Shown here piece by piece: positions 3,691 through 19,248 of a stretch of 64,000 bases of DNA; the first letter of the stretch is position 1, and the number at the start of each line of letters is the position of its first letter. The DNA lies in contig JAKQKX010000020.1 of the NCBI GenBank assembly GCA_029560465.1, positions 51,434-115,433 of the forward strand, given 5' to 3'. A program made the translations under genes and the position numbers. The notes beneath the pieces were generated by a model. The model worked only from the letters and a program-made list of their open reading frames with translations. It did not search any database and was not told the DNA's origin. The DNA comes from Candidatus Omnitrophota bacterium. GTDB lineage: Bacteria > Omnitrophota > Gorgyraeia > Zapsychrales > JANLHA01.

Positions 3691-4422
3691 TCAGTCTTCG
3701 GCCACATTAATAAACTTTTCCATCTCCCGGGACTGCTGGCACAAGGTGCGCAGCTCTTCCGGTGTAGCGCTGCAGACATGGTCCGGGCCGACAAGCCCTT
3801 TATTAAGGGTAAAATGCTTTTCGATGATCCTGGCCCCCCTGGCCACAGCCACCAACGCCGCCTCGATGCCGATCGTGTGGTCGCTGAACCCGTCGTAAGG
3901 GGTCGCCTTAAATGACACCGGCAGATGGATGTCCTTGTACTCCGCCGGATATTTCGCCACGCAATACAGGTATTTCGCTTTGTCATAATCATACGGGACA
4001 TCCGCGTCTTCCCAAAAGCCAAGCGAAATAAAAGACTCTTTCCCGGTCGCGAATATCTTCCGGCACAGCGCTTTCTCCTCTACCGTGCGGCTCGCGATCT
4101 TATAGCGATTGACTTTTAAATTCTCCATCCATTCAAAGCGCTCTTCGTCGAACACCGAAGCCATAAATTCGATGCCTTCTTCGTCACACCAGGTTTTAAG
4201 CCGCTTGGCCTCGTCAAACCCGAACTGCACCGTCAGGGCAAACCGGTAGTTTTCCTCGTTAGGATAGCTTCCTTGCGGCCCGAAAATTTTAGCCGGGTCG
4301 TAAAACTGGAACTTGGCGATATCAGCCCCGCACTGTTTGGCCTGCTTGATCAACTCATGGGCCAGGTGAACGCTGCCGTTATGGTTGATCCCGATTTCCG
4401 CGATGATAATCATATGCACCAC
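3691..4422 (-). CDS. NeuB-family nonulosonic acid synthase homolog, catalytic TIM-barrel domain only, lacking the C-terminal SAF domain
   Basis: IIAEIGINHNGSVHLAHELIKQAKQCGADIAKFQ matches the NeuB/PseI N-terminus. At 243 aa it is too short to include a SAF domain. Confidence 0.65.
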   Translation of the reverse strand: MVHMIIIAEIGINHNGSVHLAHELIKQAKQCGADIAKFQFYDPAKIFGPQGSYPNEENYRFALTVQFGFDEAKRLKTWCDEEGIEFMASVFDEERFEWMENLKVNRYKIASRTVEEKALCRKIFATGKESFISLGFWEDADVPYDYDKAKYLYCVAKYPAEYKDIHLPVSFKATPYDGFSDHTIGIEAALVAVARGARIIEKHFTLNKGLVGPDHVCSATPEELRTLCQQSREMEKFINVAED

Positions 4423-6471: not shown

Positions 6472-7826
6472 GCGGCTTTCTCCTTTCTGGGCCTTTTCCG
6501 AACTGCGGTTTTCACCGCGTCCCAGACGCGCCGGCTGCACCGGCCGTCTCCATGCCCCATATAACTCCGGATAAATTCCTGTTTTTTTCCCCGGTTCATC
6601 TCAAACCTTTTTAAATGCATTTGCGGAAGCCGCTCAATCACATCCTCGATCTCCCAGGTCTCAATGACACCGGGGTAATTAAACTGGGAGCCTTCTTCCG
6701 CGGAAAACCAGAAGCGTTGCGCCTCATCAATAAAGAACTCCCTGGGTAAATTAATATTCAAACAGTACACCCCCGCGTAAATAGCGGTCAAAGAGGCCAG
6801 GCTGTAATACATGACGCACATACGGCTCACGGTCAGCAGTTCTTTTAATATAGGCGGGTTCTGCTGTGTTTCATCATCCCAGACAACCAGATCAGCGCAT
6901 TCCTTCACATAGTCCGCAACCGGGAATTTCATGCGCGGCTTCACCACCAGGTGCAAATTGTTCCGGCGGGAGAACCCCCGGATCGCCTGAAACACTTTCG
7001 CTTCATTCATACCCTGCGCCAAAAATCTCCGGCTTAGAGGATCCTGCATAACGCGCAACAAATTCCAACTCTTTTGTATAAAATCTTTAATAAGATAATT
7101 TTTCTTATCATGAGCATAGGAACCATCCGGGGCTGTCGCCGTATTCGCATAAAGCCCGCAGAACGCCCGCTCCCAGGCGGAGGACCGGTTCCGGTTGCAA
7201 TACGGGAACGGCAGATAAAGCAGAACATCTTTGTCCGGCGGCAGCCCGTATTTCGCCCGCACGGCGTCCGGATTAATGGTCTTAAACGCATCAAATTCCG
7301 CGTTCCCGGAGACAACGATGCGGGTATTATCCGGATAGAGATAATCCGTGTATCCCGGATGAAAATTTTTCAAAAATGCTTTTCCTTTTTCCGCGTAAAT
7401 CTCACTATAAACCAGAAACAGTTCTTTATTCCGTCGTTTCTTTAAAAACCCCAGTTTGGGTATATGAAAAAAGTTGTCCGGCCCGGTCATCAGCGTCACC
7501 CAGGTAAACGGGAATTCATCTAAAGAAGCGTCCGGGAGAGAAAACTTAGAAGGACAAATAGAGACTACTGCGTCAATCGTTTTGGCCTCACGCAATTTTT
7601 TATCCAAATCCTCCGGGCCTTCGAACATAATTCCAGTCGGCCGACATAATCCCGGAAAATCGGGAATATGTTCGATATACGGGAAAGAGAAGCTCTTTCT
7701 TCCCGTCCGGGGGGCGCTGTAATCATGCCAGCATTCCACGCTATAGCCCCGCCGTAACGCTTCCTGAATGACCGGCGTGTAATAACGGTAATAATTCGTC
7801 CTATAGACTAAAAATACGACCCGCAT
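6468..7826 (-). CDS. Putative capsule/teichoic-type glycosyl- or glycerophosphotransferase-like protein
   Basis: 452-aa soluble protein in the glycan locus with weak resemblance to the Capsule_synth / Glyphos_transf families. Assignment is by context only. Confidence 0.35.
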   Translation of the reverse strand: MRVVFLVYRTNYYRYYTPVIQEALRRGYSVECWHDYSAPRTGRKSFSFPYIEHIPDFPGLCRPTGIMFEGPEDLDKKLREAKTIDAVVSICPSKFSLPDASLDEFPFTWVTLMTGPDNFFHIPKLGFLKKRRNKELFLVYSEIYAEKGKAFLKNFHPGYTDYLYPDNTRIVVSGNAEFDAFKTINPDAVRAKYGLPPDKDVLLYLPFPYCNRNRSSAWERAFCGLYANTATAPDGSYAHDKKNYLIKDFIQKSWNLLRVMQDPLSRRFLAQGMNEAKVFQAIRGFSRRNNLHLVVKPRMKFPVADYVKECADLVVWDDETQQNPPILKELLTVSRMCVMYYSLASLTAIYAGVYCLNINLPREFFIDEAQRFWFSAEEGSQFNYPGVIETWEIEDVIERLPQMHLKRFEMNRGKKQEFIRSYMGHGDGRCSRRVWDAVKTAVRKRPRKEKAA

Positions 7827-8487
7827 GATCCCTCCACATGTTTTGCGCGATCAAAAAATCTTCTTCCGTATCGATATCGAACAATTCCAGTTTATCCTTC
7901 AACTCCACCAGTTGAACTTCCTTCCAGTCCCAGTAACGGCCATGCTGAAAAAAATAGTCTTTAGAGAAAAAATACAAGGCATGGGCGAACTCCAAAACCG
8001 GGTCCACGGTCTTGGTATTGATCGTCTGAAGCGACAAAGAAAAATTCAAAGGGTTGCGTTTCATATCGAAATAAAAATTATGGCGTTTCACGACGGCAAA
8101 CGCCGATTCCCAATTATGGTCACAGCATTGTTCCAGGAAATCCGCAATGGTTTTGACTTTTAAAAAAGGTAAACACCCGTTAATGATCAGAAAATATTGA
8201 TAAGGAAGATCCTTCAAAAACGACAGAATCTCCGTGATCGGCCCGTCGATCAGCACTGATTCCTGGCTGCGCTGGACAAATGGCACACCATGAACCCGGC
8301 ACTTATCCGCGAAATCCTGTTCATAACCGGCGAAAAACGTGTGCTCCCCCAACGCGCCCAACTTTTTCAGCATAATATCGGTGAGGGTCGTGTCCCCAAA
8401 CGGCCGGACCATTTTTTCAGGGCAGCGCTGGCTCTGTTTCCGGCCGAATGAAAAAACACCAATTTTTTGCCGCTCAACATGTGCCAT
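7801..8487 (-). CDS. Cytidylyltransferase family protein (CTP_transf_3; NeuA/KdsB/SpsF-like CMP-sugar synthetase)
   Basis: N-terminal FGRKQSQRCPEKMVRPFG resembles the AR-x-S-x-R-x-P-x-K...G motif. C-terminal FDIDTEEDF resembles the DIDTxED motif of KdsB/NeuA. Confidence 0.6.
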   Translation of the reverse strand: MAHVERQKIGVFSFGRKQSQRCPEKMVRPFGDTTLTDIMLKKLGALGEHTFFAGYEQDFADKCRVHGVPFVQRSQESVLIDGPITEILSFLKDLPYQYFLIINGCLPFLKVKTIADFLEQCCDHNWESAFAVVKRHNFYFDMKRNPLNFSLSLQTINTKTVDPVLEFAHALYFFSKDYFFQHGRYWDWKEVQLVELKDKLELFDIDTEEDFLIAQNMWRDHAGRIFSL

Positions 8488-9436
8488 TCAGGAACTCCTT
8501 AAAAGATATGTTAGGGATGCCGTCGACCGGCAGGGAATATTCAAACGGTTCATAGATATTGACAAAATTCATGCCCTGGTATTTCAGGATCTTTTCCAAA
8601 GCGGCAAACTCATGCGGCGGCCGCATGAAAGGGCGTTTATTCTCTTTAAAATTACCGCTGAAAGCCCGCCGCGCTTTTTTAAAAAATTTCCGGTAATGCG
8701 CCATGGATTTAAACGTGTAGCAAGCGGCATACTCCATGCTGCCCAGCATGGACATGTCCATCCCGAGGAAAAACACTTTATCAAAACCCATAAAATTCAG
8801 CACCGGGAACAACGCAATCGCCGAAGAATTCAGAAAACTGTAATCCTTAACGCGAGGCAGAGGCCCGCTTTCATCCAAGGCGTAATAATCCTGGAGATCA
8901 AAATCCCCGGCTGCCGGCCTGATCCCGCAGGTGTACACCGGATTGAGGCGGCAGAAGCTTTCTTTATAACTCTGGAAATTATCTTCTAAAGCCAGGCACG
9001 CTGTTTCCGGGAACCGGGATAACAATTCCAGCGGAGAATCCCGCAGGAACACGTCCGTCTTATAACGGAACCTCTTATGCACGCCGCGGTCCGGCCGGAA
9101 AGCCTCAAAGAACATCCGGAAGTTCTCTTTCAGGTACCGGTACTCGTCTTGGTATTCGTCCCGGATAAGGTCGGTTAAATCAATATCCGCCAAGAACGAT
9201 TGAAACACCACATGCTGAAACGCGTTGGATTTGCATTTTTCCAGATAAAACATAAGGTAAAAATCCGGCATCAAGTTCGCCTTCACAAAATACGGGGTCA
9301 GGGCCTTGCTTTCCAAAAACACCGTGACACGCCTGCGGTCAATACGTTCCAGAGGCACCCGGTTTTCAATGATCGAGGGGCCGCCGAGGATCACCAGCGC
9401 GTCGCGGCCGGCATAAGCGTTCTTTAATCGTTTCAT
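8474..9436 (-). CDS. DUF115 (MptE-like) protein, motility-accessory-factor (Maf)-like putative nonulosonic acid transferase
   Basis: ALVILGGPS-type motif near the N-terminus and a size of 320 aa. Position immediately downstream of pseI, as in Campylobacter/Helicobacter flagellin glycosylation loci. Confidence 0.5.
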   Translation of the reverse strand: MKRLKNAYAGRDALVILGGPSIIENRVPLERIDRRRVTVFLESKALTPYFVKANLMPDFYLMFYLEKCKSNAFQHVVFQSFLADIDLTDLIRDEYQDEYRYLKENFRMFFEAFRPDRGVHKRFRYKTDVFLRDSPLELLSRFPETACLALEDNFQSYKESFCRLNPVYTCGIRPAAGDFDLQDYYALDESGPLPRVKDYSFLNSSAIALFPVLNFMGFDKVFFLGMDMSMLGSMEYAACYTFKSMAHYRKFFKKARRAFSGNFKENKRPFMRPPHEFAALEKILKYQGMNFVNIYEPFEYSLPVDGIPNISFKEFLNGTC

Positions 9437-10485
9437 GACCCAGCGACCAGTTCCTTGGATAAAGGGGTGCCGCGGCGGATATCTTTCACCGCATGCCGCC
9501 CCATCACCTTACGCAGTTCTTTCGGCGGCAGCCCATAAGCCGGACGGATCGAGCGGATATTGTCAGCCGTGAATCGCTCGCCTCGTTTGATGTCCGCCAC
9601 AGCAAATAGGGACCGGCGGAACACCCGGCTCTTTCTTTCATTCTCAGTTTTAACATACGTCGCCGTCCCCAAAGCTTGTTCCGTAATCCGGATATTGTCA
9701 ACCAGCCTCTTAAACTCCCGCGGTTCCGTCGAAAAAAAGCTGTCCGGCGTTTTGTGCTTCCGGGTCAAGGTGAAATGTTTTTCGATCATGACCGCGCCCA
9801 GGCATACGGCAGCCACAGACGCGGCTAAAGTCAGAGTGTGATCCGAAAGCCCCACCGGCGCACGGAAACGCTTGGACATGTCCGGGATGACCTTCAAATT
9901 CATCTCCTGCGGTTGCGCCGGATAATTGCTCACGCATTTAAATAAAAGGATGTCTCGGGCCCCTCCCCGCCGGGCGGCCGTGACCGCGTCCTGAATCTCT
10001 TCCTTCTCCGCCATCCCTGTTGACAGGATAAGCGGTTTCCCGGTCCGGGCGGCGTGCGTGATCAAAGGGGTATCCACCAACTCAAAAGACGCGATTTTGT
10101 GTACCGGCACGTTAAGCGTTTCCAGGAAATCAACGGATGAGGCGTCAAATGCGGTCGCAAAAAACCCGAGGCCGACATCGTCCGCCACCGCTTTCAATTT
10201 TCTCAGCCAAGGCCAGGGGGTATACGCTTTTTGATAAAGCTGATACAGGGTCTGGCCGCCCCACTCTGGGTGGCGGATACGGAAATATTTATTACGGGCG
10301 TCAATCGTCATCGTGTCAGGAGTGTACGCCTGAAACTTAACCGCGTCCGCCCCGCATTCTTTCGCTTTGCGGATCATGGCCACCGCGCGCGGAAAACTTT
10401 GCCCGTGGTTCGCGGAAATCTCGGCGACGACATACACGGGGTATTGCCCCCCCACCAGCCTGTCCCCGATTTTAAACGATTTCAT
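9433..10485 (-). CDS. pseI: Pseudaminic acid synthase (NeuB family with SAF domain)
   Basis: VVAEISANHGQSF...AVKFQ NeuB motif; full length 350 aa with a C-terminal SAF-like region; located in the pse cluster. Confidence 0.85.
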   Translation of the reverse strand: MKSFKIGDRLVGGQYPVYVVAEISANHGQSFPRAVAMIRKAKECGADAVKFQAYTPDTMTIDARNKYFRIRHPEWGGQTLYQLYQKAYTPWPWLRKLKAVADDVGLGFFATAFDASSVDFLETLNVPVHKIASFELVDTPLITHAARTGKPLILSTGMAEKEEIQDAVTAARRGGARDILLFKCVSNYPAQPQEMNLKVIPDMSKRFRAPVGLSDHTLTLAASVAAVCLGAVMIEKHFTLTRKHKTPDSFFSTEPREFKRLVDNIRITEQALGTATYVKTENERKSRVFRRSLFAVADIKRGERFTADNIRSIRPAYGLPPKELRKVMGRHAVKDIRRGTPLSKELVAGS

Positions 10486-10497
10486 ATAATCCTTTCC

Positions 10498-10959
10498 TTA
10501 GAAATCATCCGGATACCGATACGTTAACACATCTTTGTCCTCGGAAAAACGCCGGTACCCGGCTTTCGCAAACGCCTTGACCGACGCCAGGTTCCCTTTA
10601 ATGATCCTGGCGATGACCGTGATCGCCCCGATCTCCTTCAAGAACTGTTCTGTCCCGGCCCGGATGACACGGGACCCAAGCCCCTGCCCCATGCAGGCGG
10701 GGTTGAGATGAACGCTCACCTGCGCGCCATCCCCTTCCGCCTCGAAGCGGATCACGCCCACTTTCTCCTCTCCCCGGCGGGCGATGTAAATCCGGCAACG
10801 GGAATCGGATATTTTCCGTTCAAACCACCGCTGATGCTCATCCCAGGGGACTACGGCGGTGTTAAAAAAATTTTTGCGGATGTCCGGGTGGTTACGCCAC
10901 TCCCAGATATCCCGCATATCCTCTTCCCAGGCCAAAGATACAACAATGTCTTCCTTCAT
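10498..10959 (-). CDS. pseH: GNAT N-acetyltransferase, likely UDP-4-amino-4,6-dideoxy-N-acetyl-beta-L-altrosamine N-acetyltransferase
   Basis: GNAT fold with the Q/R-x-x-G-x-G/A-like segment GQGLGSRVI. The start was trimmed to MKEDIVV so that it overlaps the PIG-L stop by 4 bp. Confidence 0.6.
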   Translation of the reverse strand: MKEDIVVSLAWEEDMRDIWEWRNHPDIRKNFFNTAVVPWDEHQRWFERKISDSRCRIYIARRGEEKVGVIRFEAEGDGAQVSVHLNPACMGQGLGSRVIRAGTEQFLKEIGAITVIARIIKGNLASVKAFAKAGYRRFSEDKDVLTYRYPDDF

Positions 10960-11636
10960 CGGATCGCCCTCACCACCTGAAAAGCTTCCGCGTACGCGCA
11001 ACCAGAGACGCTCCCCCACCGTTGCGCGATGGCCAATAAACTCTTTGCCGAACGGGGATGCGGCGCTGGCCGCATTTCCGAGCGGTAACACCGCATCGCC
11101 TTTATTTTCTGCACGATCGTCTCCTCAACATCAATATAAAGCGTCGGGTCAAAAGTCCGGGGATATGCCCATTCCGACGAGGACGGCACTTCAAACGCGT
11201 AAATTTCCCTGACCGGCTCTCCCTTCATGGGCCGGCAGGCGGTCATCACCGCGTTATACGTGATGCGGTGATCAATATTCAAATCACCCCAGTGATGCGT
11301 CAACACCGTGTCGGGCCGGACCTGCCGTTTGATCTCTTCCAGACGCTGGACAATTTCCAAAAGGGAAACCGTGTCCAGTTTGTTATCAGGAAGGTCAAGC
11401 TGATGCACGTCCTTCACGCCTAAGACCTGGTTGGCGGCCGTCATCTGCTCTTTCAATTTTTTCTTTTCGCGATCCTGTCTCCCGGAAGCGCCGTCGCTGT
11501 AACGCGCGGTCACCCCTTCTCCCAATATGACCGTCGCCACACTGTGCCCTTCTTTGACAAAACGGGCGACCGCCGCCCCGCACCCCAACACCTCATCATC
11601 CGGATGAGCCGCGACGACTAAAATTTTTTTCTTCAT
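10956..11636 (-). CDS. PIG-L/LmbE family N-acetyl-sugar deacetylase
   Basis: ILVVAAHPDDEVLG is the canonical HPDDE zinc-binding motif. Confidence 0.8.
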   Translation of the reverse strand: MKKKILVVAAHPDDEVLGCGAAVARFVKEGHSVATVILGEGVTARYSDGASGRQDREKKKLKEQMTAANQVLGVKDVHQLDLPDNKLDTVSLLEIVQRLEEIKRQVRPDTVLTHHWGDLNIDHRITYNAVMTACRPMKGEPVREIYAFEVPSSSEWAYPRTFDPTLYIDVEETIVQKIKAMRCYRSEMRPAPHPRSAKSLLAIAQRWGSVSGCAYAEAFQVVRAIR

Positions 11637-12328
11637 GCCGTCTCCTTTGGACAGATTTCAACCCGCGCGGTGAGCCGCCGGCCTTTCCTCTCTGCCGCAA
11701 AAAATTCAAACCGTAACGCCTTCGTTTCCAAAAACGCGCGGGGGTAACTTTCCGCGTCCAGCATGCGGATCCTGTCATACGCTTCCGGCACGGAAGAGAC
11801 AGAAACAAGGTCGCTCTCTTCGGGCGTCCTCCGCCGGAAAACGACCGCCGCCCCCTTCTGGGGCCGGGGGGTTATCGCGCCGTGAACAATCGCGGGCATC
11901 ATACGCCCGAAAATAACGGCCGCGGCCCGCCGGTAAATTTCCCCAGCCGACCCCCGCAAAGACAACGCGCGCTTCAAGTACACAGGTCCGGCGTCAAATT
12001 CTTCCGTGACCCTGATCGCGGTAATTTTTGTCGACCGGTGTCCCCGGACAATCAAATTCTGCAACGGGCTCCCGCCCCGGCCGTAAGGCAAATCCGTCAT
12101 GTGAAAAGCAACGCACGGGTACGCCGCATAGATATCCGGCGGGATTTTCCAGGACCAATGCGGAAAAAATATAAAATCCGGGTTATACTTTTTGACCGGC
12201 GCGAGGCGTAAATGGTCCCTATTCAGAATCAGGCGCACGGAAACGCACGGATTGTGTTTCCGGAAATCCCGTGCCGCCGCGATATTCCAAGTCTTAACCG
12301 TCGCGATGATAATCTTTTTCTTTTTCAT
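11633..12328 (-). CDS. Formyltransferase-domain protein (Fmt/PurN-like sugar N-formyltransferase)
   Basis: HMTDLPYGRGGSPLQNLI matches the formyl_trans_N H-x-S-L-P-x-x-RG motif. Start taken at MKKKKIIIA. Confidence 0.7.
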   Translation of the reverse strand: MKKKKIIIATVKTWNIAAARDFRKHNPCVSVRLILNRDHLRLAPVKKYNPDFIFFPHWSWKIPPDIYAAYPCVAFHMTDLPYGRGGSPLQNLIVRGHRSTKITAIRVTEEFDAGPVYLKRALSLRGSAGEIYRRAAAVIFGRMMPAIVHGAITPRPQKGAAVVFRRRTPEESDLVSVSSVPEAYDRIRMLDAESYPRAFLETKALRFEFFAAERKGRRLTARVEICPKETA

Positions 12329-13344
12329 AAAGCCACTCGGGGCTGCGCCGCCCCGGCGTTCACCACAGCATCCACGATCCGGAACGCTCCCTGGCCGTCC
12401 ACACAAGCCTTGCCGGTCTTAGCCAAGCCCTGGCGCAACCCTTTATCGTGATATTTTTTCAAGCCCGCCCGCAGGTTAACGAACACCTCCGGGGCTTCGA
12501 TTCTCCCGCAAAACTCAATCATCCCTTTATGCTGAAGCCCGCGGACGTTCGCGGACTGATTATCAGCCACGCAAACGGCCAAAGTCGGGACCCCGCACCG
12601 GGCCAACTCATACAGGGTTTGGCCGCCCGCCGACACCGCCAAATCCGCTTCCAGCATGCGGGCCTTCATCTGTTGGGCGTCCAGGGCCGCGACAAATTCG
12701 GTTCGCTCGTCCGCCTGCTCAAGCAACGCGGCGTCAGGCCCGCAGCCATGCCCTAAAATAACCGTCTTCTTCACAGCGGGGTATTCCGCTTTTATCGCCT
12801 GATAACACAGCGGCGTGGCCTGTTTCATATCGCTGCCGCCCATCGTTAATAAAATATTCTCAACGCTTTCGCGCACAGGTCTTTGGGGAACCGCCCAAAA
12901 CACCGAACGCAAAGGCATGTATTGTTCACCGAGAAGATAAACCGTCCCCTCCCGGGATGGGTATAAAAACTGTTCCGGACAGGCCGTGGCGTTGACGACA
13001 AACCCCGGAGGATAAAGCAAACGTTTATAATCATCCAGATAAACAACGGACCGGGCAGCTCCTGACACGGCGAGGTAAACAGGCTCCGGCGCCCAATAAG
13101 AATCGATCACAACGGCATCGAGACCCGAAGCCAAAAGGTTGTTTAAACACCCGTTTTCAAACCAGCAAAAAACGTCACTGGCCATGCCTTTTGTGAACGC
13201 GGCCGCTGATCCGTCCCCGTTAATAACCATGCGCGGGGTAAAATCCCGGGACTCAAAAGCCTGATACAACGCCGTGCACCGGGCGAGATGCCCGAATCCG
13301 AACCTTTTTCCCCCTTCGGTGAGGATCAGGACATCACGTTTCAT
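12325..13344 (-). CDS. pseG: UDP-2,4-diacetamido-2,4,6-trideoxy-beta-L-altropyranose hydrolase (MurG-like fold)
   Basis: N-terminal LILTEGGKRFGFGHLARCTALYQ matches the PseG GxGHxxRC motif. Length is 339 aa. Confidence 0.75.
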   Translation of the reverse strand: MKRDVLILTEGGKRFGFGHLARCTALYQAFESRDFTPRMVINGDGSAAAFTKGMASDVFCWFENGCLNNLLASGLDAVVIDSYWAPEPVYLAVSGAARSVVYLDDYKRLLYPPGFVVNATACPEQFLYPSREGTVYLLGEQYMPLRSVFWAVPQRPVRESVENILLTMGGSDMKQATPLCYQAIKAEYPAVKKTVILGHGCGPDAALLEQADERTEFVAALDAQQMKARMLEADLAVSAGGQTLYELARCGVPTLAVCVADNQSANVRGLQHKGMIEFCGRIEAPEVFVNLRAGLKKYHDKGLRQGLAKTGKACVDGQGAFRIVDAVVNAGAAQPRVAL

Positions 13345-14073
13345 TTATAGACTCGCCTCGAGGGCCGCCTGATATTTCATATAAAATTCCGCCTTGAGAA
13401 AATCCTGTTCATGATCAATTTCCGTGGCATAGCGCTCATCATGAACAAGAAGCGCCACCCGGTCTCCCATGTAAGCGTGCACTTTCAAGACCCCGGCCGC
13501 CGCCAGCAAGGGACCTCTTCTTAAAACAATGACCGCCCCATCCAACAAATACAGCGTGGGCAAATCCTGCATCCGGAAAGCATGGGCCGATGGTATAAAA
13601 GGGCGGATCAACCCGCTTTCGGGGTCCAGGATTTTCATCCATTCCGGCCGCTGATCAATCGCGTAGGCGGTCGCCACCGCCGTGCCATCCTCACGGGACA
13701 CCAGTTTTTGCACCGCCTCATCGATCTCCCCATCCTTGCGGATGGGGACATTCGCCTGAAGGGCCACGACAATATCAAAAGTTTTTCCACCCGCCTCTTC
13801 TTCCGCCTGTAAGGCGTGGCGCAAAGCGTCGTCGAACGGGGATGTGTCCCGGGCCAACTCCGCCGGACGCATGATCACCTCCGCGCCATACCTTCCGGCA
13901 ACGGCGCCAATCTCATCATTATCAGTGGACACAACGACCTTATTGCAAAGCCGGCTCTTCAACGCCATCTCGACCGTATAAGCAATAAGAGGCTTGCCGC
14001 AGAGGTCCCGCACATGCTTCATCGGCGCGCGCCGGCTTCCGCCCCTGGCGGGGATCACGCATAGCACATTCAT
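13345..14073 (-). CDS. pseF: Pseudaminic acid cytidylyltransferase (CMP-Pse synthetase)
   Basis: MNVLCVIPARGGSRRAPMKHVRDLCGKPLIAYT is a CTP_transf_3 N-terminus. Confidence 0.8.
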   Translation of the reverse strand: MNVLCVIPARGGSRRAPMKHVRDLCGKPLIAYTVEMALKSRLCNKVVVSTDNDEIGAVAGRYGAEVIMRPAELARDTSPFDDALRHALQAEEEAGGKTFDIVVALQANVPIRKDGEIDEAVQKLVSREDGTAVATAYAIDQRPEWMKILDPESGLIRPFIPSAHAFRMQDLPTLYLLDGAVIVLRRGPLLAAAGVLKVHAYMGDRVALLVHDERYATEIDHEQDFLKAEFYMKYQAALEASL

Positions 14074-14089
14074 GAAATCTCCCTTATTT

Positions 14090-15247
14090 TCATGCCAACA
14101 CCTTGATTAACGTTTGCACAACATGCCGCACGTCGCATTTACGCAACTGCGGATAAAGCGGCAGGGTCATGGCCCGCTCATAATACTGCTCCGCAAAAGG
14201 GAACTGCCCGCGCCGGTAACCAAACCGCTTCTGGTAATACGGCTGAAGGTGAATCGGTATATAATGGACCTGCGGGAGAATCCCCTCCCGCAGCAACGCC
14301 TGAAACGTCCTGTCTCTTAACGCCGCGTCTTTAAACTGGATCACAAAAATATGCCATGCGGCCTTCACGTCTTTCTTTTCCACCGGGAGAATAAAACGCG
14401 AATCTTGCGCCAGCAAAGCATGATACGTCTCCACGTGCGTTCTGCGCTGGTCAAGAAACCGGTCCAGTTTTCTCAACTGGGAAACCCCCAACGCGCACTG
14501 CAGATCGGTGATCCGGTAGTTATACCCCAGGACCGGCATCTCGTAATACCACGGCCCGTCGTTCCTGGTTAATAAACGCGGGGTTTTCGTCATCCCGTGC
14601 GTGCGGAAAATCTGCAGCCGCTCATAAAGGTCTTTACGGTTCGTCAGGATGGCCCCGCCTTCTCCGGTCGTGATGTTCTTCACCGGGTGAAAACTGAACA
14701 CGGTCATATCCGAATACGCGCCGCCGCCGATTTTTTTCCCGCGGTATTCCGCCCCCAGCGCATGACAGGCGTCTTCGATCACCAGAAGCTTACGCTTCCG
14801 GGCGATACGCCGGATCGCCGCCATATCAGCGGGGTGCCCGGCGAAATGCACCGGGATCAGCGCCTTGGTCCTGGCGCTGATCTTTTTTTCGATCGCCGCA
14901 GGATCTATATTCACCGTCTCCTCATCAATATCCGCGAACACCGGCGTCCCTCCGCAGTACACGACACAGTTCGCCGAGGCCAAAAATGTCACCGGAGATG
15001 TGATGACTTCGTCTCCCGGAGCGATCCCCGCGGCCAGGCAGGCCATGTGAAGCGCCGCGGTCCCGTTCGACACGGCCACCGCGTATTTCGCGCCGGTGTA
15101 CCGGCACAGGGCCTCTTCAAACTCCCTGATCTTCGGCCCCTGGGACAGCCAGTCCGAACGGAGCACATCCGTGACCGCTTTGATGTCGTCCTTGGTGATC
15201 GTCTGCCGACCGTAAGAAATTTTGCGTTTCCTCATCATCTTAACCAT
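14090..15247 (-). CDS. pseC: DegT/DnrJ/EryC1 PLP-dependent aminotransferase (UDP-4-keto-6-deoxy-AltNAc aminotransferase)
   Basis: Strong similarity to sugar aminotransferases: GPKIREFEE, AVSNGTAALH, SFHPVKNITTGEGG. Confidence 0.85.
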   Translation of the reverse strand: MVKMMRKRKISYGRQTITKDDIKAVTDVLRSDWLSQGPKIREFEEALCRYTGAKYAVAVSNGTAALHMACLAAGIAPGDEVITSPVTFLASANCVVYCGGTPVFADIDEETVNIDPAAIEKKISARTKALIPVHFAGHPADMAAIRRIARKRKLLVIEDACHALGAEYRGKKIGGGAYSDMTVFSFHPVKNITTGEGGAILTNRKDLYERLQIFRTHGMTKTPRLLTRNDGPWYYEMPVLGYNYRITDLQCALGVSQLRKLDRFLDQRRTHVETYHALLAQDSRFILPVEKKDVKAAWHIFVIQFKDAALRDRTFQALLREGILPQVHYIPIHLQPYYQKRFGYRRGQFPFAEQYYERAMTLPLYPQLRKCDVRHVVQTLIKVLA

Positions 15248-15249
15248 GG

Positions 15250-16695
15250 TTATTTCTTCACATACTCCTTAAATTTCTTAATGACGCCCCATTCCGTCAC
15301 CGCGCGGTAAACCCGCATCAACCGGTAAGAGCAATGCAGCCGGGAGACAAAACATCTGGCCAGCAATTTCCAGAGCGGGCGGTGGCCTTTGTAGACATAA
15401 TAATCAAACCACACGAAATAATGCATCAATCTCCGCCGGGGCAATCCCTTTAAATTCAGGACCGGCCGGGAACGTTCCCGCTCGACATCGAGCCGTTGGG
15501 GCAAAAGCTTCATCTCGCGGCACACCCGGTGGATTTCAGTGCCGGGATACGGGAAAAAGATGGAATGCGAAGGCCACATGTCCGGCTGGCAGGCGCGGTT
15601 GACCGCGATCGTCTGACGGACATCTTCCTCGGTTTCCGTGGGCAGGCCGATCATGTTCAAAAAATGCACTTTGAGCCTGTTCTCCCGGGCCAAGGACGCT
15701 GTGCGGATGATATCGTCATTCGAATAATGCCGTTTCATAATTTCCCGGCGGATGCGTTCGCTCCCCGACTCCACACCCACATTAATAAACGTAAAACCGC
15801 TCCCCCTCATGGCGGCAAACAGCGGGCCGAAATCCGTGTTCGGCGTGACCCGGATATTCACCCCGAAATCCAGCGGCACCGCCCGTTGGCTGTTAAAGGC
15901 CGCCAATTGTCGGCACAAATCCAGGGCCCAAGGCATATTCACGTTAAACGTCTCGACTTCAAAATACACCTCCCGCACAGACGGTTGCTGTTCCGTGATG
16001 TCCTGAAGCTCGGCGATAATGTTGCCGGCGGAACGGCAACGCACATACGCGCCTGAAGCGAGCTTCTTCAGGGCATGATTGGAACAGTACGTGCATTGAA
16101 ACGGGCACCCACGCCCCAACAAGACCGCCGGACGGCTGTCTAAATCCAGGGTCCAGGGCCGCCACATCTCCCGGTCCGGGAAAGGGAGCTCATCAAGGTT
16201 CTCCCAAAACGGCCGCAAACGGTTCTTTTCAACCTTGCCGTTACGGTTAAACCAAAAGTTCTCAATTCCAGACGGTGAACGGCCGCCCTCCAGTCTCTCA
16301 ACCAGTTCCAGGGTCGGGTATTCCCCTTCCCCCAGGCAAACGGCGTCCAGATCCGTCCCCAGCCCGTCTTCCGGGTTCAAAGAAAGATGGCACCCTCCCC
16401 CCAGAAGAAAAATCTGGGGGAATTCCGCCTTTATATTTTTTATCCAGCGGGTGATAAAAAAGAATTCGCTCGTGACCGCGGAAAAACACAGGACCGCCGG
16501 CTTAAAATCGTTGATAAAAGCCCGGAACGCGTCCATCCGCGTATCTTTCGTCAACACAAACAATGTCGTGCGGTGCCCGTGCTTCTTTAACAGCGCCGAA
16601 ATGTAGGAAATCCCGAAATTCATTTCTTCCTGGTACTGAAGCGGTTTTTCAGGAGAAAACACATTCTGGGACGAAAAAACAAACGCGATATTCAT
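15250..16695 (-). CDS. B12-binding-domain radical SAM enzyme
   Basis: N-terminal Rossmann-like cobalamin-binding domain; CxxxCxxC cluster GRGCPFQCTYCSN. Length is 481 aa. Confidence 0.8.
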   Translation of the reverse strand: MNIAFVFSSQNVFSPEKPLQYQEEMNFGISYISALLKKHGHRTTLFVLTKDTRMDAFRAFINDFKPAVLCFSAVTSEFFFITRWIKNIKAEFPQIFLLGGGCHLSLNPEDGLGTDLDAVCLGEGEYPTLELVERLEGGRSPSGIENFWFNRNGKVEKNRLRPFWENLDELPFPDREMWRPWTLDLDSRPAVLLGRGCPFQCTYCSNHALKKLASGAYVRCRSAGNIIAELQDITEQQPSVREVYFEVETFNVNMPWALDLCRQLAAFNSQRAVPLDFGVNIRVTPNTDFGPLFAAMRGSGFTFINVGVESGSERIRREIMKRHYSNDDIIRTASLARENRLKVHFLNMIGLPTETEEDVRQTIAVNRACQPDMWPSHSIFFPYPGTEIHRVCREMKLLPQRLDVERERSRPVLNLKGLPRRRLMHYFVWFDYYVYKGHRPLWKLLARCFVSRLHCSYRLMRVYRAVTEWGVIKKFKEYVKK

Positions 16696-16710
16696 GGTTC
16701 TCCTGCAGGA

Positions 16711-17694
16711 TCAAAGGCCGGCAATGACCCGCTTTAATTGTTCAACCGTGAGCCACTGCTGGTTCGTGTCGCTGGTGTAAGCGAACCCCTCCGGGACAGA
16801 CGACAATTTATCATACTGGCAGTGAACCTCCTGTGTGTCAAAAAACTGCGGAAGAATGACATAATTGTCCCCGTCGATTTTCGTGTTACGGGATTCATCC
16901 CCGGAAATCAAGGTTTCATGGACTTTCTCCCCCGGGCGGATGCCGATTATTTTAAACGTGCAGTCCGGCTCGATGGCCCGGGCCAGATCAACGATCTTCA
17001 TGGAGGGAACCCGGGGGATAAAGACCTCCCCCCCTTCGGAAGTATCCAGGGCCTTGATAACAAGCTGGACGCACTGATCCAGCGTGATCCAGAAGCGGGT
17101 CATCCTTTCATCGGTGAGAGGAAACTCCCGGCATTTTTTGCTTTTCAAATTCAGGAACAACGGGATCACGCTCCCCCGGGACCCCATCACGTTCCCGTAA
17201 CGGACCGCGGAAAACTTGACCCTCCCGCCGGCGAAAGCGTTGGCGGCGATGAAAATTTTCTCCGCGACCAGCTTCGTCGCTCCGTAAAGGTTGACCGGGT
17301 TCACGGCCTTGTCGGTGGACAGCGCGACCACTTTTTTGACCCTGGCGTCAATCGCCGCGTTGACGATATTGTCGGCGCCGATGACGTTGGTCTTCACCGC
17401 TTCCGTCGGATTATATTCCAACGCCGGGACCTGCTTGAGCGCCGCGGCATGAACCACGTAATCGACCCCTTCGAAAGCCCGGTAAAGCCGGTCGCGGTCG
17501 CGGATGTCTCCGAGAAAATAACGGACCGGGTATTTCCGGTCCGGGAAAACCCGGGACATCTCGAACTGTTTAAACTCGTCCCGGCTGAAAATAATAAGCT
17601 TCTTCAACTGATATTTATTCAAAAGGACTTCTGTGAATTTCTTCCCGAACGACCCTGTCCCGCCGGTCACCAGCACCACTTTTTGATTCAACAT
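16711..17694 (-). CDS. pseB: UDP-N-acetylglucosamine 4,6-dehydratase (inverting)
   Basis: VLVTGGTGSFGKKF plus a CapD/FlaA1-like body. Start taken at MLNQKVV. Confidence 0.85.
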   Translation of the reverse strand: MLNQKVVLVTGGTGSFGKKFTEVLLNKYQLKKLIIFSRDEFKQFEMSRVFPDRKYPVRYFLGDIRDRDRLYRAFEGVDYVVHAAALKQVPALEYNPTEAVKTNVIGADNIVNAAIDARVKKVVALSTDKAVNPVNLYGATKLVAEKIFIAANAFAGGRVKFSAVRYGNVMGSRGSVIPLFLNLKSKKCREFPLTDERMTRFWITLDQCVQLVIKALDTSEGGEVFIPRVPSMKIVDLARAIEPDCTFKIIGIRPGEKVHETLISGDESRNTKIDGDNYVILPQFFDTQEVHCQYDKLSSVPEGFAYTSDTNQQWLTVEQLKRVIAGL

Positions 17695-17719
17695 GAGAAC
17701 TCCTTCATAAAATAACGCG

Positions 17720-18682
17720 TTATCCGATAGAAGATTTCCGTTTGAGTGCCCGGTACTCCGCGATCGTCCGCTCCACACCTTCGGCAAGCGAAATGCGCGG
17801 CGTAAAGCCCAACGCGGTCATCCGGTTTATATCCATGCATTTCCGGGCCATGCCGTCCGGCTTGCTTGTGTCCCACGCCAGCCGGCCCCGGAAACCCGCT
17901 TTCTGCGCGATCAATTCCGCCAGGGAACGGATCGTCACCTCTTTCCCGCTTCCCACATTAATAAATTCCGGAGAGTCATAGTGCTCCATCATATACACAA
18001 TCGCGGCCGCCGCATCATCCACGTGCAGGAATTCCCGGAGGGCGCTCCCGGTCCCCCAGAGGGGAACCGCGTCCCGGCCCTCATCCACCGCGTCAACCGT
18101 CTTTTTCACCAAAGCGGAAAGGACATGCGATTTATCCAAATCAAAGCAATCATTCGTCCCGTAGAGATTGCACGGCATCAGGCTGATCCCGGGAAACCCG
18201 TATTGCCGGTTATAATATTCCACCATCTTCAAACCCGCGATCTTGGCCAAAGCATACCCTTCGTTTGTCGGCTCCAAAGCGCCGGTCAACAGATAGTCCT
18301 CCTTCATGGGCTGCGGGCACTCCCTCGGGAAAATGCAGGAACTGCCCAAGAAACAAAATTTCCGGGCACCGTGGACATAAGCCTGATGAATAATATTATT
18401 TTGAATCACCAGGTTTTCATAAAGGAACTCCGCCTTATGTTCATTGTTGGCTTTAATCCCTCCCACCCGCGCTGCGGCGTCGATCACGATATCAGGTTTC
18501 TCCCGGGAGAAAAACTCTTTAACCGCTTCCGTATCCATCAAATCCAATTCCACCCGGGACCTTAAAACAAAATTGGAGAACCCCCTGCCTTTGAGCTGCC
18601 GCACAACGGCAGAACCGACCATGCCGTTATGCCCGGCCACAAAAATTTTATACTCCGGACGTATTTCAAATACCTTCTTCAC
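17720..18682 (-). CDS. fcl: GDP-L-fucose synthase (GDP-4-keto-6-deoxy-D-mannose 3,5-epimerase/4-reductase)
   Basis: IFVAGHNGMVGSA, YALAKIAGL and CNLYG are typical of Fcl. Confidence 0.8.
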   Translation of the reverse strand: MKKVFEIRPEYKIFVAGHNGMVGSAVVRQLKGRGFSNFVLRSRVELDLMDTEAVKEFFSREKPDIVIDAAARVGGIKANNEHKAEFLYENLVIQNNIIHQAYVHGARKFCFLGSSCIFPRECPQPMKEDYLLTGALEPTNEGYALAKIAGLKMVEYYNRQYGFPGISLMPCNLYGTNDCFDLDKSHVLSALVKKTVDAVDEGRDAVPLWGTGSALREFLHVDDAAAAIVYMMEHYDSPEFINVGSGKEVTIRSLAELIAQKAGFRGRLAWDTSKPDGMARKCMDINRMTALGFTPRISLAEGVERTIAEYRALKRKSSIG

Positions 18683-18696
18683 TTAACACCTCGTTT

Positions 18697-19248
18697 CTAT
18701 AAATGAATCTCCCGGGCCAGGGTTTCGAACACATTGACCCTCTTGCCGGCCAGCCATCCCGGAGGTTCCGCTTGCGGACGGCAGATAAAAAGCACCCCGT
18801 CCTCCAGGTCTTCCCGCTCCTCGTCAGAAAGAATCCGAAACCGGCAGCCCTGAAATTCCTCTTCCTTAAAAACCGACTGAACGAGCCAAGACACCTCCTC
18901 ATCCCCGCAAGCCCAGAAATCCCGTTCCCCGCTGCGGTAAAAACCGCGCACAATGTCCCGGATCGTCTGCTTATACCGCTTGATAGACCGAATCGTCTCC
19001 AGCGTGCAATGCCTGGATTTCTCCAACCGCTCGGACAAGCCTTTCGGCGTTAGCGTGTATTCAATTTTTCTTTTCGTGACTTGGCGAATATGAATATACC
19101 CCTGCTCAACAAGACGGCGCAGGAGCATATGGGTTGCCCCTAGAGATATGTTCAAATGACGGGAGAAGTCCCTCTGGCTGGCGGCACATTCCGCCCCAAT
19201 GATATTGATGAGCTCGGCTTCTTTTGTGTTCAGGGTATCTTTGATCAC
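18697..19248 (-). CDS. Winged helix-turn-helix transcriptional regulator (MarR/PadR-like N-terminal domain)
   Basis: N-terminal ELINIIGAECAASQRDFSRHLNISLGATHMLLRRLVEQGYI is an HTH plus wing. Preceded by its own AT-rich promoter region. Confidence 0.55.
   Translation of the reverse strand: MIKDTLNTKEAELINIIGAECAASQRDFSRHLNISLGATHMLLRRLVEQGYIHIRQVTKRKIEYTLTPKGLSERLEKSRHCTLETIRSIKRYKQTIRDIVRGFYRSGERDFWACGDEEVSWLVQSVFKEEEFQGCRFRILSDEEREDLEDGVLFICRPQAEPPGWLAGKRVNVFETLAREIHL

What the first reader, a model, noticed from the sequence alone, without database searches (positions are those of the whole stretch)
9433..17694. Complete pseudaminic acid pathway (pseB-pseC-pseH-pseG-pseI-pseF) embedded in a single-strand glycan locus
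All six canonical Pse enzymes are recognisable by motif: PseB, PseC, PseH, PseG (GxGHxxRC), PseI with SAF, and PseF. They are tightly packed, several with 4-bp ATGA overlaps, but interleaved with non-canonical enzymes (PIG-L, formyltransferase, B12-radical SAM). This predicts a CMP-activated, modified pseudaminic acid rather than plain Pse5Ac7Ac.
Basis: partly seen in the sequence, partly recalled or inferred. Interest (0 to 1): 0.6.

Follow-up and report, generated by a model that had tools for sequence, protein, structure and literature searches.

The report
Pseudaminic acid operon with tailoring enzymes
An uncultured Omnitrophota bacterium carries a complete operon for the bacterial sialic-acid-like sugar pseudaminic acid, and three extra enzymes inside it probably alter the sugar's nitrogen substituents and perhaps its carbon skeleton; the core pathway is ordinary, the extras are uncharacterised.

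Summary
On the minus strand, 9433-17694 encodes PseB, a B12-type radical SAM enzyme, PseC, PseF-like, PseG-like, a 1ZGH-family formyltransferase-like protein, a PIG-L deacetylase, a PseH-like GNAT and PseI. Four gene junctions are ATGA overlaps.

PseB, PseC and PseI exceed NCBIfam's curated equivalog cut-offs. PseF, PseG and PseH fall below theirs but are the best hits. A profile of PseG orthologues finds C. jejuni PseG in the PDB at E 1e-22. Legionaminic and neuraminic acid models score far lower, and the locus has no NeuC/LegG-type epimerase.

The window matches a Candidatus Omnitrophota MAG. NCBI already names its PseI "pseudaminic acid synthase".

The formyltransferase-like/PIG-L pair recurs in all seven Pse-type clusters examined, in bacteria and an archaeon. 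One cluster has the formyltransferase-like protein fused to the GNAT. A related Omnitrophota genome carries a different acyl cassette in its place. A 2026 preprint links a deacetylase plus formyltransferase to formylated, free-amine nonulosonic acids in Kuenenia.

The likely product is therefore a CMP-activated Pse with one acetamido group exchanged, probably for formamido. The radical SAM role is unknown. This is a new variant of a known pathway, of moderate interest.

The parts
16711..17694 (-). pseB: UDP-GlcNAc 4,6-dehydratase (inverting). ATG at 17694; the listed ORF extends to a TTG at 17787.
   Evidence: TIGR03589 488.2 bits, above the 407.75 cut-off; LegB model 64 bits. Polysacc_synt_2 329 bits.
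15250..16695 (-). B12-binding-domain radical SAM enzyme, function unknown. Candidate sugar-tailoring enzyme (C-methylase or other radical chemistry).
   Evidence: PF02310 plus PF04055. CxxxCxxC motif at C197/C201/C204, invariant in 45 homologues. AF2 model pLDDT 92.9; best folds are MgmA 9ccb and AprD4 6fd2. Lies between pseB and pseC in L001, L002 and L006 as well.
14090..15247 (-). pseC: UDP-4-amino-4,6-dideoxy-L-AltNAc aminotransferase.
   Evidence: TIGR03588 507.2 bits, above the 423.5 cut-off; LegC model 268 bits, below its 420 cut-off.
13345..14073 (-). pseF-like CMP-nonulosonate synthetase.
   Evidence: Best NCBIfam hit is TIGR03584 PseF at 120.4 bits (cut-off 205.7). CTP_transf_3 83 bits. 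Best PDB hit is a chain deposited as NeuA, 9ftb, E 1.6e-22.
12325..13344 (-). pseG-like UDP-sugar hydrolase.
   Evidence: TIGR03590 122.2 bits over model positions 3-278 of 280 (cut-off 153.55). An orthologue profile hits C. jejuni PseG 3hbm at E 1.3e-22. G16, G18, H19, R22 and C23 are invariant.
11633..12328 (-). Formyltransferase-like protein of the 1ZGH/PF21553 family. ATG at 12328, ATGA overlap with pseG.
   Evidence: PDB 1zgh E 2.8e-66. PF21553 61 bits plus PF00551 29 bits. More than 7,700 homologues. His and Asp of the N-H-D triad are conserved but the Asn is absent.
10956..11636 (-). PIG-L/LmbE-family de-N-acetylase.
   Evidence: PF02585 96.4 bits. AHPDDE motif present. PDB hits include diacetylchitobiose deacetylase and BshB. 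Adjacent to the FT-like gene in 7 of 7 contexts.
10498..10959 (-). pseH-like GNAT N-acetyltransferase. ATG at 10959, ATGA overlap with the PIG-L gene.
   Evidence: Best NCBIfam hit is TIGR03585 at 68.3 bits (cut-off 93.1). Best PDB hit is H. pylori PseH 4xpk, E 1.4e-10.
9433..10485 (-). pseI: pseudaminic acid synthase with a C-terminal SAF domain.
   Evidence: TIGR03586 448.1 bits, above the 340.25 cut-off; NeuB model 299.6, below its 399.65 cut-off. NeuB plus SAF domains. NCBI names the identical protein pseudaminic acid synthase.
8474..9436 (-). Conserved 320-aa protein translationally coupled to pseI, distantly MptE-like/DUF115. Candidate nonulosonic acid transferase (inference only).
   Evidence: ATGA overlap with pseI. 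PF01973 E 0.0035. About half of 117 homologues carry PF01973. AF2 model pLDDT 93.7; best PDB fold is M. jannaschii MptE/HPPK 8sd5, E 0.011. Syntenic in L001 and L002.
17720..19248 (-). Head of the operon: a MarR-like EPS-associated regulator (18697-19248) and a GDP-L-fucose-synthase-like reductase (17720-18682).
   Evidence: TIGR04176 42.9 bits; NF047922 421.7 bits, below its 500 cut-off. The best promoter-like site (TTGACA-17-TAATAT) is at 19313-19285, in the only large upstream gap (136 bp).

Best explanation
This is a co-transcribed operon of a Candidatus Omnitrophota bacterium. It converts UDP-GlcNAc into a CMP-activated pseudaminic acid derivative for a surface glycan.

Shown by profile matches:
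- PseB dehydrates and inverts UDP-GlcNAc to the 4-keto-6-deoxy-L sugar.
- PseC aminates C4.
- The PseG-type hydrolase removes UDP.
- PseI condenses the hexose with PEP.
- The PseF-like enzyme adds CMP.

Inferred: the translationally coupled block pseG / FT-like / PIG-L / GNAT is an N-substituent exchange module.
- The PIG-L enzyme removes an N-acetyl group. The likeliest target is the GlcNAc-derived acetyl that becomes N5.
- The FT-like protein re-acylates an amine, most likely with formyl from 10-formyl-THF.
- The PseH-like GNAT acylates the other amine.
- The product would be a Pse with one formamido and one acetamido group: Pse5Fo7Ac, or less likely Pse5Ac7Fo. Which nitrogen carries which group is unresolved.

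The B12-type radical SAM enzyme between pseB and pseC adds a further modification of unknown chemistry. C-methylation and another radical transformation are both open.

The coupled MptE-like protein downstream is the candidate transferase.
For: Core pathway:
- Equivalog-level scores for PseB, PseC and PseI; best-hit status for PseF, PseG and PseH.
- PseG orthologue profile matches C. jejuni PseG at E 1.3e-22.
- GNAT matches H. pylori PseH.

Operon:
- All gaps are 25 nt or less from 19248 down to 6468; four are ATGA overlaps.
- A promoter-like site sits in the 136-bp gap upstream.

Module:
- FT-like and PIG-L are adjacent inside Pse-type clusters in the window and in L001, L009, L010, L011, L095 and L096. 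Together with the Omnitrophota window and L001 (record title 'uncultured Planctomycetales'), these cover a Planctomycetes MAG, a Parcubacteria-group MAG, a Margulisiibacteriota MAG, a Thermoplasmatota archaeon MAG and an unclassified metagenome contig.
- L009 has an FT-like::GNAT fusion protein.
- In L096 a canonical Formyl_trans_N protein takes the GNAT's place while the FT-like/PIG-L pair stays.
- In the related Omnitrophota genome L002, the frame pseB-rSAM-pseC...pseG...pseI is kept. FT-like/PIG-L/GNAT is replaced by a NeuD-type acyltransferase plus E1 alpha/beta plus a lipoyl protein, which indicates a swappable N-acyl cassette.

Chemistry precedent:
- Ca. Kuenenia makes CMP-nonulosonic acids with one free amine and one N-formyl group. 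Its cluster holds a deacetylase and a formyltransferase (bioRxiv 10.64898/2026.04.20.719630).
- 5-N-formyl-legionaminic acid exists in Halorubrum (PMC6137143).
- PseF tolerates N-formyl Pse (PMC11040635).

Radical SAM enzyme:
- The orthologue lies between pseB and pseC in all four genomes where identity is 56% or more.
- Other B12-rSAM lineages sit in comparable Pse clusters: the second copy in L001, and L095.
Against: - PseF, PseG and PseH are below NCBIfam's curated cut-offs.
- All six canonical enzymes are present, so plain Pse5Ac7Ac could be made without the extras.
- The FT-like family lacks the Asn of the canonical Asn-His-Asp formyltransferase triad: it has A/V-F-H in place of N-x-H. 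No member has a demonstrated activity.
- In L096 a canonical formyltransferase sits beside the FT-like gene. This could mean the FT-like protein is not itself the formyl donor enzyme.
- I could not retrieve the Kuenenia genes, so their homology to this pair is unverified.
- Radical SAM relatives at 36-54% identity lie in generic polysaccharide loci. None of 80 metagenome loci has them flanked by PseB and PseC. The enzyme may therefore act on something other than the Pse intermediate.
- No glycan chemistry is available for this organism.
Confidence: 0.6

Rival explanations
1. The operon makes plain CMP-Pse5Ac7Ac. The FT-like/PIG-L pair acts only transiently, as formyl protection and deprotection of an amine in the manner of ArnA/ArnD in Ara4N synthesis. 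Alternatively, it acts with the radical SAM enzyme on other sugars of the same glycan.
For: - All six canonical enzymes are present.
- The radical SAM family is mostly found in non-Pse polysaccharide loci.
- The locus also encodes fucose-synthase-like and other NDP-sugar enzymes, GT2s and methyltransferases that need substrates.
- The ArnA/ArnD formylate-then-deformylate logic is established knowledge.
Against: - The pair is translationally coupled between pseG and pseH and stays inside Pse-type clusters across phyla.
- The position holds a different acyl cassette in L002. That fits a product-diversifying role, not a housekeeping one.
- CMP-nonulosonic acids carrying formyl and free-amine groups are stable end products in Kuenenia.
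Confidence: 0.25
2. The FT-like protein is not a formyltransferase. With PIG-L and the GNAT it installs a different substituent, or leaves a free amine. The product is then a Pse with a free amino group or a non-formyl acyl group.
For: - The canonical catalytic Asn is absent across 120 homologues, while a family-specific FFPHWSW / FHMTDLPxGRGGSPLQNLI signature is conserved.
- A separate canonical Formyl_trans_N protein sits next to the FT-like gene in L096.
- Free-amine nonulosonic acids exist.
Against: - The His and Asp of the triad and the overall formyltransferase fold are retained: 1zgh, ArnA and Fmt are the PDB hits.
- Every characterised relative of this fold that I know of uses 10-formyl-THF (own knowledge, not tested here).
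Confidence: 0.12
3. The genes belong to a legionaminic acid or neuraminic acid pathway rather than Pse.
For: NeuB-family, DegT-family and SDR enzymes are shared by all three pathways. The PseF-like protein's PDB hits are all deposited as NeuA or CMP-sialic acid synthetases.
Against: - Pse models beat Leg and Neu models by 150-420 bits, and three pass the curated Pse cut-offs.
- A PseG-type hydrolase is present, and no NeuC/LegG 2-epimerase was found in the locus.
Confidence: 0.03

Closest known systems
Canonical pseudaminic acid pathway of Campylobacter jejuni / Helicobacter pylori (PseB, PseC, PseH, PseG, PseI, PseF)
   Same: All six steps have a counterpart here. PseB, PseC and PseI meet the equivalog cut-offs. 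PseG aligns to the C. jejuni structure with its catalytic-motif histidine. The GNAT is nearest to H. pylori PseH.
   Different: Three extra enzymes are embedded here: a B12 radical SAM enzyme, a 1ZGH-type formyltransferase-like protein and a PIG-L deacetylase. PseF, PseG and PseH are too diverged to reach curated thresholds. The host is an uncultured Omnitrophota bacterium, and the 64-kb window shows no flagellin context.
PseJ route to Pse5Ac7Fo (canonical sugar N-formyltransferase replacing PseH; cited in PMC11040635)
   Same: Both involve a formyltransferase-fold enzyme inside a Pse pathway that is predicted to give an N-formyl Pse.
   Different: No chain deposited as PseJ appeared among the PDB hits (E up to 0.01) of the protein here, which belongs to the 1ZGH/PF21553 family. 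It lacks the catalytic Asn. It is always paired with a deacetylase, and it coexists with a PseH-like GNAT rather than replacing it.
Ca. Kuenenia stuttgartiensis nonulosonic acid cluster with deacetylase plus formyltransferase (bioRxiv 10.64898/2026.04.20.719630)
   Same: A deacetylase and a formyltransferase lie between the early (B/C) and late (synthase, cytidylyltransferase) genes. CMP-activated products carry N-formyl and free-amine groups. The cytidylyltransferase-like gene is duplicated, as it is here.
   Different: That cluster is described as Leg-type, with a legG-type gene. No N-acetyltransferase is listed for it. Homology of its two enzymes to the pair here could not be checked. It has no radical SAM gene.
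Class B (B12-binding domain) radical SAM enzymes: MgmA, TsrM, TokK and CysS (methylases), AprD4 (aminoglycoside 1,2-diol dehydratase)
   Same: Same two-domain architecture and CxxxCxxC motif. The model superposes on MgmA and AprD4 with TM 0.67-0.76. AprD4, and GenK from own knowledge, act on amino-sugar substrates.
   Different: Only 13-20% identity. NCBIfam scores are far below every cut-off; the best is HpnJ at 117 bits against 578. The sequence does not indicate cobalamin use or reaction type.

Membership tests
Pseudaminic acid biosynthesis pathway (Pse) | Inverting UDP-GlcNAc 4,6-dehydratase/5-epimerase PseB (TIGR03589 at or above cut-off) | tested here: met
   488.2 bits against cut-off 407.75; FnlA 249 and LegB 64 bits.
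Pseudaminic acid biosynthesis pathway (Pse) | PseC aminotransferase (TIGR03588 at or above cut-off) | tested here: met
   507.2 bits against 423.5; LegC 268 bits, below its 420 cut-off.
Pseudaminic acid biosynthesis pathway (Pse) | PseI synthase, NeuB plus SAF domains (TIGR03586 at or above cut-off) | tested here: met
   448.1 bits against 340.25; NeuB_NnaB 299.6, below its 399.65 cut-off. SAF domain 46.7 bits.
Pseudaminic acid biosynthesis pathway (Pse) | PseG UDP-sugar hydrolase (GT-B fold, N-terminal GxGHxxR histidine) | tested here: met
   TIGR03590 gives 122.2 bits, below its 153.55 cut-off. However, the orthologue profile hits C. jejuni PseG 3hbm at E 1.3e-22 over residues 1-273 of 282. 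The next hit is at 5e-6. GxGHxxRC is invariant in 8 orthologues.
Pseudaminic acid biosynthesis pathway (Pse) | PseH N-acetyltransferase (GNAT, TIGR03585 at or above cut-off) | tested here: inconclusive
   Best hit, but 68.3 bits against cut-off 93.1. Best PDB hit is H. pylori PseH, E 1.4e-10. Substrate and acyl donor cannot be read from the sequence.
Pseudaminic acid biosynthesis pathway (Pse) | PseF CMP-Pse synthetase (TIGR03584 at or above cut-off) | tested here: inconclusive
   Best hit, but 120.4 bits against cut-off 205.7. PARGGS nucleotide-binding motif present. PDB hits are CMP-sialic acid synthetases.
Legionaminic / neuraminic acid pathways | NeuC/LegG-type hydrolysing 2-epimerase (PF02350) and LegB/LegC/NeuB equivalogs | tested here: not met
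   No Epimerase_2 hit among the locus genes scanned. LegB, LegC and NeuB models are all below their cut-offs and below the Pse models.
N10-formyl-THF-dependent sugar N-formyltransferases (ArnA, PseJ, WlaRD type) | Catalytic Asn-His-Asp triad (N-x-H...D) | tested here: not met
   His (FHMTDLP) and Asp (DxG) are conserved, but the Asn position is Ala or Val in the query, in 1zgh and in the family consensus.
N10-formyl-THF-dependent sugar N-formyltransferases (ArnA, PseJ, WlaRD type) | Formyl transfer to an amino sugar | not testable with these tools
   Requires an enzyme assay. Only the fold and partial motif similarity were shown.
PIG-L/LmbE zinc de-N-acetylases | PF02585 domain with the AHPDDE metal-binding motif | tested here: met
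   96.4 bits against cut-off 28.2, covering model positions 1-129 of 129. 'AAHPDDEVLG' is present. PDB relatives are GlcNAc-type deacetylases.
Cobalamin-dependent (class B) radical SAM methyltransferases | N-terminal B12-binding domain plus a radical SAM core with CxxxCxxC | tested here: met
   PF02310 58.3 bits and PF04055 73.1 bits. C197, C201 and C204 are invariant. Fold matches MgmA, TsrM, TokK, CysS and OxsB.
Cobalamin-dependent (class B) radical SAM methyltransferases | Cobalamin binding and methyl transfer | not testable with these tools
   AprD4 has the same architecture, is an equally good fold match, and is a dehydratase. The architecture alone does not decide the reaction type.
Maf/DUF115 (MptE-like) nonulosonic acid transferases (for the coupled gene 8474-9436) | PF01973 domain at the gathering score | tested here: inconclusive
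   Query scores 17.6 bits against cut-off 34.6. About half of the homologues carry PF01973 in precomputed annotation. The fold match to MptE is only E 0.011. The family profile finds no PDB relative.

The most novel reading that the evidence does not exclude
The B12-type radical SAM enzyme wedged between pseB and pseC C-methylates, or otherwise rebuilds, the 6-deoxy-hexose intermediate. Together with the deacetylase/formyltransferase-like pair, the operon would then make a CMP-activated ulosonic acid with an extended or branched carbon skeleton and an N-formyl group. This would give the first genetic handle on 'higher-carbon' (C10) ulosonic acids. Such sugars were reported by mass spectrometry in Magnetospirillum with no known biosynthesis.
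Probability: 0.15. Interest if true: 0.7.

Novelty: new variant of a known kind. Interest (0 to 1): 0.4.

Why it matters
Pseudaminic acids decorate flagella, pili, capsules and S-layers. Their N-substituents control charge, phage recognition and immune evasion. The enzymes that diversify those substituents are mostly unknown.

This locus, and the related loci gathered here, show that a 1ZGH-type formyltransferase-like protein and a PIG-L deacetylase form a widespread, mobile two-gene module inside Pse clusters of bacteria and archaea. The formyltransferase-like family has more than 7,700 homologues, routinely annotated as 'methionyl-tRNA formyltransferase'. The module is sometimes fused to the acetyltransferase.

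Assigning it a role in N-acyl exchange would correct a common misannotation. It would also explain the formylated and free-amine nonulosonic acids now being detected by mass spectrometry.

The radical SAM enzyme points to a further, unexplored layer of nonulosonic acid tailoring. For the organism itself, the result is simply that an Omnitrophota bacterium displays a Pse-type sugar on its surface.

Tried and rejected
- Leg/Neu assignment was rejected on profile scores and on the absence of a 2-epimerase.
- Single-sequence PDB search for PseG found nothing. The orthologue profile resolved this.
- I tested whether the radical SAM family is Pse-specific. It is not. Homologues at about 50% identity sit in generic polysaccharide loci, and one sits outside any glycan locus. 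None of 80 metagenome loci (36-54% identity) is flanked by PseB and PseC. Only the copies at 56% identity or more are.
- I tried to decide methylase versus dehydratase by fold. MgmA and AprD4 match equally well, so this was inconclusive.
- I tried to identify the pseI-coupled gene 8474-9436. There is a weak PF01973 hit, a good AF2 model but only a marginal MptE fold match, and no PDB sequence relative. It remains a candidate transferase only.
- Literature searches for radical SAM with pseudaminic or nonulosonic acid, for LmbE with nonulosonic acid, and for 1ZGH returned nothing useful. PMC8851196 was irrelevant.
- The long plus-strand ORFs opposite the genes (for example 16738-17715 and 14597-15310) are treated as shadow ORFs of a GC-rich coding strand and were not pursued.
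- The overall counts of promoter-like and terminator-like sites are not above shuffles. Only the position of the best promoter-like site is used.

Full report
**Observation**

The window is almost entirely coded on the minus strand. I refined starts by domain coverage and upstream stop codons. On that basis, 9433-17694 holds nine contiguous genes, in transcription order:

1. pseB, 16711-17694
2. B12-binding radical SAM, 15250-16695
3. pseC, 14090-15247
4. pseF-like, 13345-14073
5. pseG-like, 12325-13344
6. formyltransferase-like (FT-like), 11633-12328
7. PIG-L deacetylase, 10956-11636
8. pseH-like GNAT, 10498-10959
9. pseI, 9433-10485

Junction sequences show four exact ATGA start/stop overlaps: pseG/FT, FT/PIG-L, PIG-L/GNAT, and pseI/next gene. 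No other gap exceeds 16 nt. Only the gene order given in the title differs from the physical order.

**Pathway identity**

NCBIfam equivalog models place three enzymes above their curated cut-offs:

| Enzyme | Score (bits) | Cut-off |
|---|---|---|
| PseB | 488.2 | 407.75 |
| PseC | 507.2 | 423.5 |
| PseI | 448.1 | 340.25 |

The competing models are far lower: LegB 64, LegC 268, NeuB 300, FnlA 249 bits.

PseF (120.4 against 205.7), PseG (122.2 against 153.55) and PseH (68.3 against 93.1) are the top hits but sit below threshold. I tested PseG further. A profile of eight syntenic orthologues finds C. jejuni PseG (3hbm, 'UDP-sugar hydrolase') at E 1.3e-22 over residues 1-273 of 282. The next hit, a generic GT-B glycosyltransferase, is at 5e-6. 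The G-x-G-H-x-x-R-C residues are invariant.

The GNAT's best solved relative is H. pylori PseH (4xpk, E 1.4e-10). No NeuC/LegG-type epimerase appears among the locus genes.

**Source and annotation status**

The radical SAM, PseI and FT-like proteins are identical to proteins of a Candidatus Omnitrophota MAG in NCBI. There they are already named 'radical SAM protein', 'pseudaminic acid synthase' and 'formyltransferase family protein'. The rest of the window carries housekeeping genes: metH, ftsK, pnp and a MiaB-like gene. This is a chromosomal locus.

**Extent of the locus**

The operon probably starts at a MarR-like EPS regulator (18697-19248). That gene follows the only large gap (136 bp), which contains the best promoter-like site. 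A GDP-fucose-synthase-like gene follows the regulator.

Downstream of pseI lie, in order:

- an MptE-like protein (8474-9436)
- a weak cytidylyltransferase-like gene
- two unknowns
- a methyltransferase
- a SAF-less NeuB paralogue
- a GT2
- an MsbA/PglK-like ABC exporter
- an FkbM methyltransferase

Upstream of the regulator are a methyltransferase-GT2 fusion, an SDR enzyme and another methyltransferase. This is a surface-glycan locus. The acceptor is unknown, and the window holds no flagellin gene.

**The FT-like/PIG-L/GNAT block**

The FT-like protein is 50-60% identical over residues 5-226 to the structural-genomics protein 1zgh, 'methionyl-tRNA formyltransferase' (E 2.8e-66). It belongs to a family of more than 7,700 homologues of about 230 aa, generally annotated as Fmt.

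Conservation analysis of 120 homologues shows the signatures FFPHWSW, FHMTDLPxGRGGSPLQNLI, DxG and IRMLDxExYPxAF. The His and Asp of the formyltransferase triad are kept. The Asn two residues before the His is Ala or Val. Strict membership of the canonical N-formyltransferases therefore fails on a defining feature.

I examined the genomic context of five distant homologues. Each time the gene was next to a PIG-L gene inside a Pse-type cluster:

- L010, Planctomycetes MAG: pseB-pseC-...-pseG-FT-PIG-L-GNAT-pseI-CT.
- L011, Thermoplasmatota archaeon MAG: pseG-pseI-FT-PIG-L-GNAT.
- L095, Parcubacteria-group MAG: pseB-pseC-B12 rSAM-CT-FT-PIG-L-GNAT-pseI.
- L009, unclassified metagenome contig: PIG-L followed by an FT::GNAT fusion protein.
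- L096, Margulisiibacteriota MAG: a canonical Formyl_trans_N protein, then FT-like, then PIG-L.

With the window and L001 this makes 7 of 7.

In the related Omnitrophota chromosome L002, the frame pseB-rSAM-pseC-CT-pseG ... pseI-MptE-like is conserved at 44-85% identity. The three genes are replaced there by a NeuD-type acyltransferase, E1 alpha/beta-like proteins and a lipoyl-domain protein. The position thus behaves as an exchangeable N-acyl cassette.

**Mechanistic reading (inference)**

In Pse, N5 derives from the acetamido group of GlcNAc, and N7 from the amine installed by PseC (established pathway knowledge). A deacetylase is needed only if the GlcNAc-derived acetyl is to be removed. 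Its obligatory pairing with an acyl-transfer-fold protein suggests deacetylation followed by re-acylation.

The variable partner would serve the PseC-derived amine: GNAT in most clusters, a canonical formyltransferase in L096, and none listed in Kuenenia.

This fits the preprint's chemistry. Ca. Kuenenia makes CMP-nonulosonic acids with one free amine and one N-formyl group, and its cluster has a deacetylase and a formyltransferase. 5-N-formyl-legionaminic acid is known in Halorubrum. PseF accepts N-formyl Pse.

The alternative assignment is equally compatible with the gene content: FT-like on N7, PIG-L on N5, and GNAT re-acylating N5. An ArnA/ArnD-like transient formyl cycle cannot be excluded either.

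**The radical SAM enzyme**

It has a B12-binding domain, a radical SAM core and an invariant CxxxCxxC motif. Its family has more than 2,000 homologues.

Orthologues at 56% identity or more (window, L001, L002, L006) always lie between pseB and pseC. Homologues at about 50% lie next to GT4, Wzy, Wzx and similar genes in generic polysaccharide loci or elsewhere. None of 80 metagenome loci at 36-54% identity is flanked by PseB and PseC.

Other B12-rSAM lineages also occur in Pse clusters, namely the second copy in L001 and the one in L095. L010 has an rSAM-SPASM gene. Radical tailoring of these clusters is therefore recurrent but polyphyletic.

The AF2 model (pLDDT 92.9) matches the C-methylase MgmA and the aminoglycoside diol-dehydratase AprD4 equally well. 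TsrM, OxsB, CysS and TokK follow. The reaction type is undecided. No paper in the searchable library links radical SAM enzymes to pseudaminic or nonulosonic acids.

**Verdict**

The core is an ordinary, already auto-annotated Pse pathway in a new phylum.

The interesting part is the set of embedded tailoring enzymes. One element is a widespread but biochemically uncharacterised FT-like/PIG-L module. The other is a radical SAM enzyme of unknown role.

I rate the locus a new variant of a known kind, interest 0.4. There is a 15% chance that the radical SAM enzyme creates a skeleton-modified (for example C10) ulosonic acid.

Noticed in passing
window 3691-4422 (-) and 7801-8487 (-): The same locus holds a second NeuB-family gene that lacks the SAF domain. 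It is 243 aa, 31% identical to PseI, and its best PDB hit is 6ncs. A second, weak cytidylyltransferase-like gene is also present. Together they hint at a second ulosonic-acid branch or a diverged paralogue pair.
   Followed up: partly
window 38973-39047 (-): A c-di-GMP-I riboswitch (RF01051, 61.9 bits, E 1e-9) lies about 300 nt upstream of the cobalamin-dependent methionine synthase ORF (34942-38676). That is an unusual gene for this riboswitch class to precede. It is unclear whether the riboswitch controls metH.
   Followed up: partly
L002 14399-17471: In the related Omnitrophota chromosome (OY759724), the FT-like/PIG-L/GNAT block is replaced by a NeuD-type acyltransferase, pyruvate-dehydrogenase-E1-like alpha and beta subunits and a lipoyl-domain protein. 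This may be a TPP/lipoyl-based supply of an unusual N-acyl group. L096 carries transketolase/E1-like genes in a comparable place.
   Followed up: partly
L001 12603-13973: The closest relative (85-94% protein identity; record title 'uncultured Planctomycetales') has an additional B12 radical SAM gene between pseC and pseF. That gene is HpnJ/BchE-like (192 and 181 bits) and is absent from the window. The taxonomic label also conflicts with the Omnitrophota assignment of the window's identical proteins.
   Followed up: partly
L009 7001-8215: A natural fusion of the formyltransferase-like domain (PF21553) with a GNAT domain (protein P0205, 404 aa) sits directly after a PIG-L gene and before pseI. 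This is Rosetta-stone evidence that the two act together.
   Followed up: yes
window 8474-9436 (-): A family of about 117 'hypothetical proteins', mostly from Omnitrophota and other uncultured lineages, is translationally coupled to pseI here. It gives a confident AF2 model but has no convincing solved relative. Invariant residues include the GGxS motif (G18, G19, S21) and G225 and D227 of the GMDMS motif.
   Followed up: partly
window 22937-23809 (+) and 34942-38676 (-): Methylenetetrahydrofolate reductase lies right next to the glycan locus, and a B12-dependent MetH lies nearby. The organism therefore uses folate one-carbon units and cobalamin, the presumed cofactors of the FT-like and radical SAM enzymes. 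The adjacency may be coincidental.
   Followed up: no
window 54257-59357 (-): A DUF2298 membrane protein (724 aa) and a PMT/ArnT-like GT-C protein (573 aa) lie downstream in the window. They are possible glycan-transfer machinery and were not linked to the Pse locus here.
   Followed up: no
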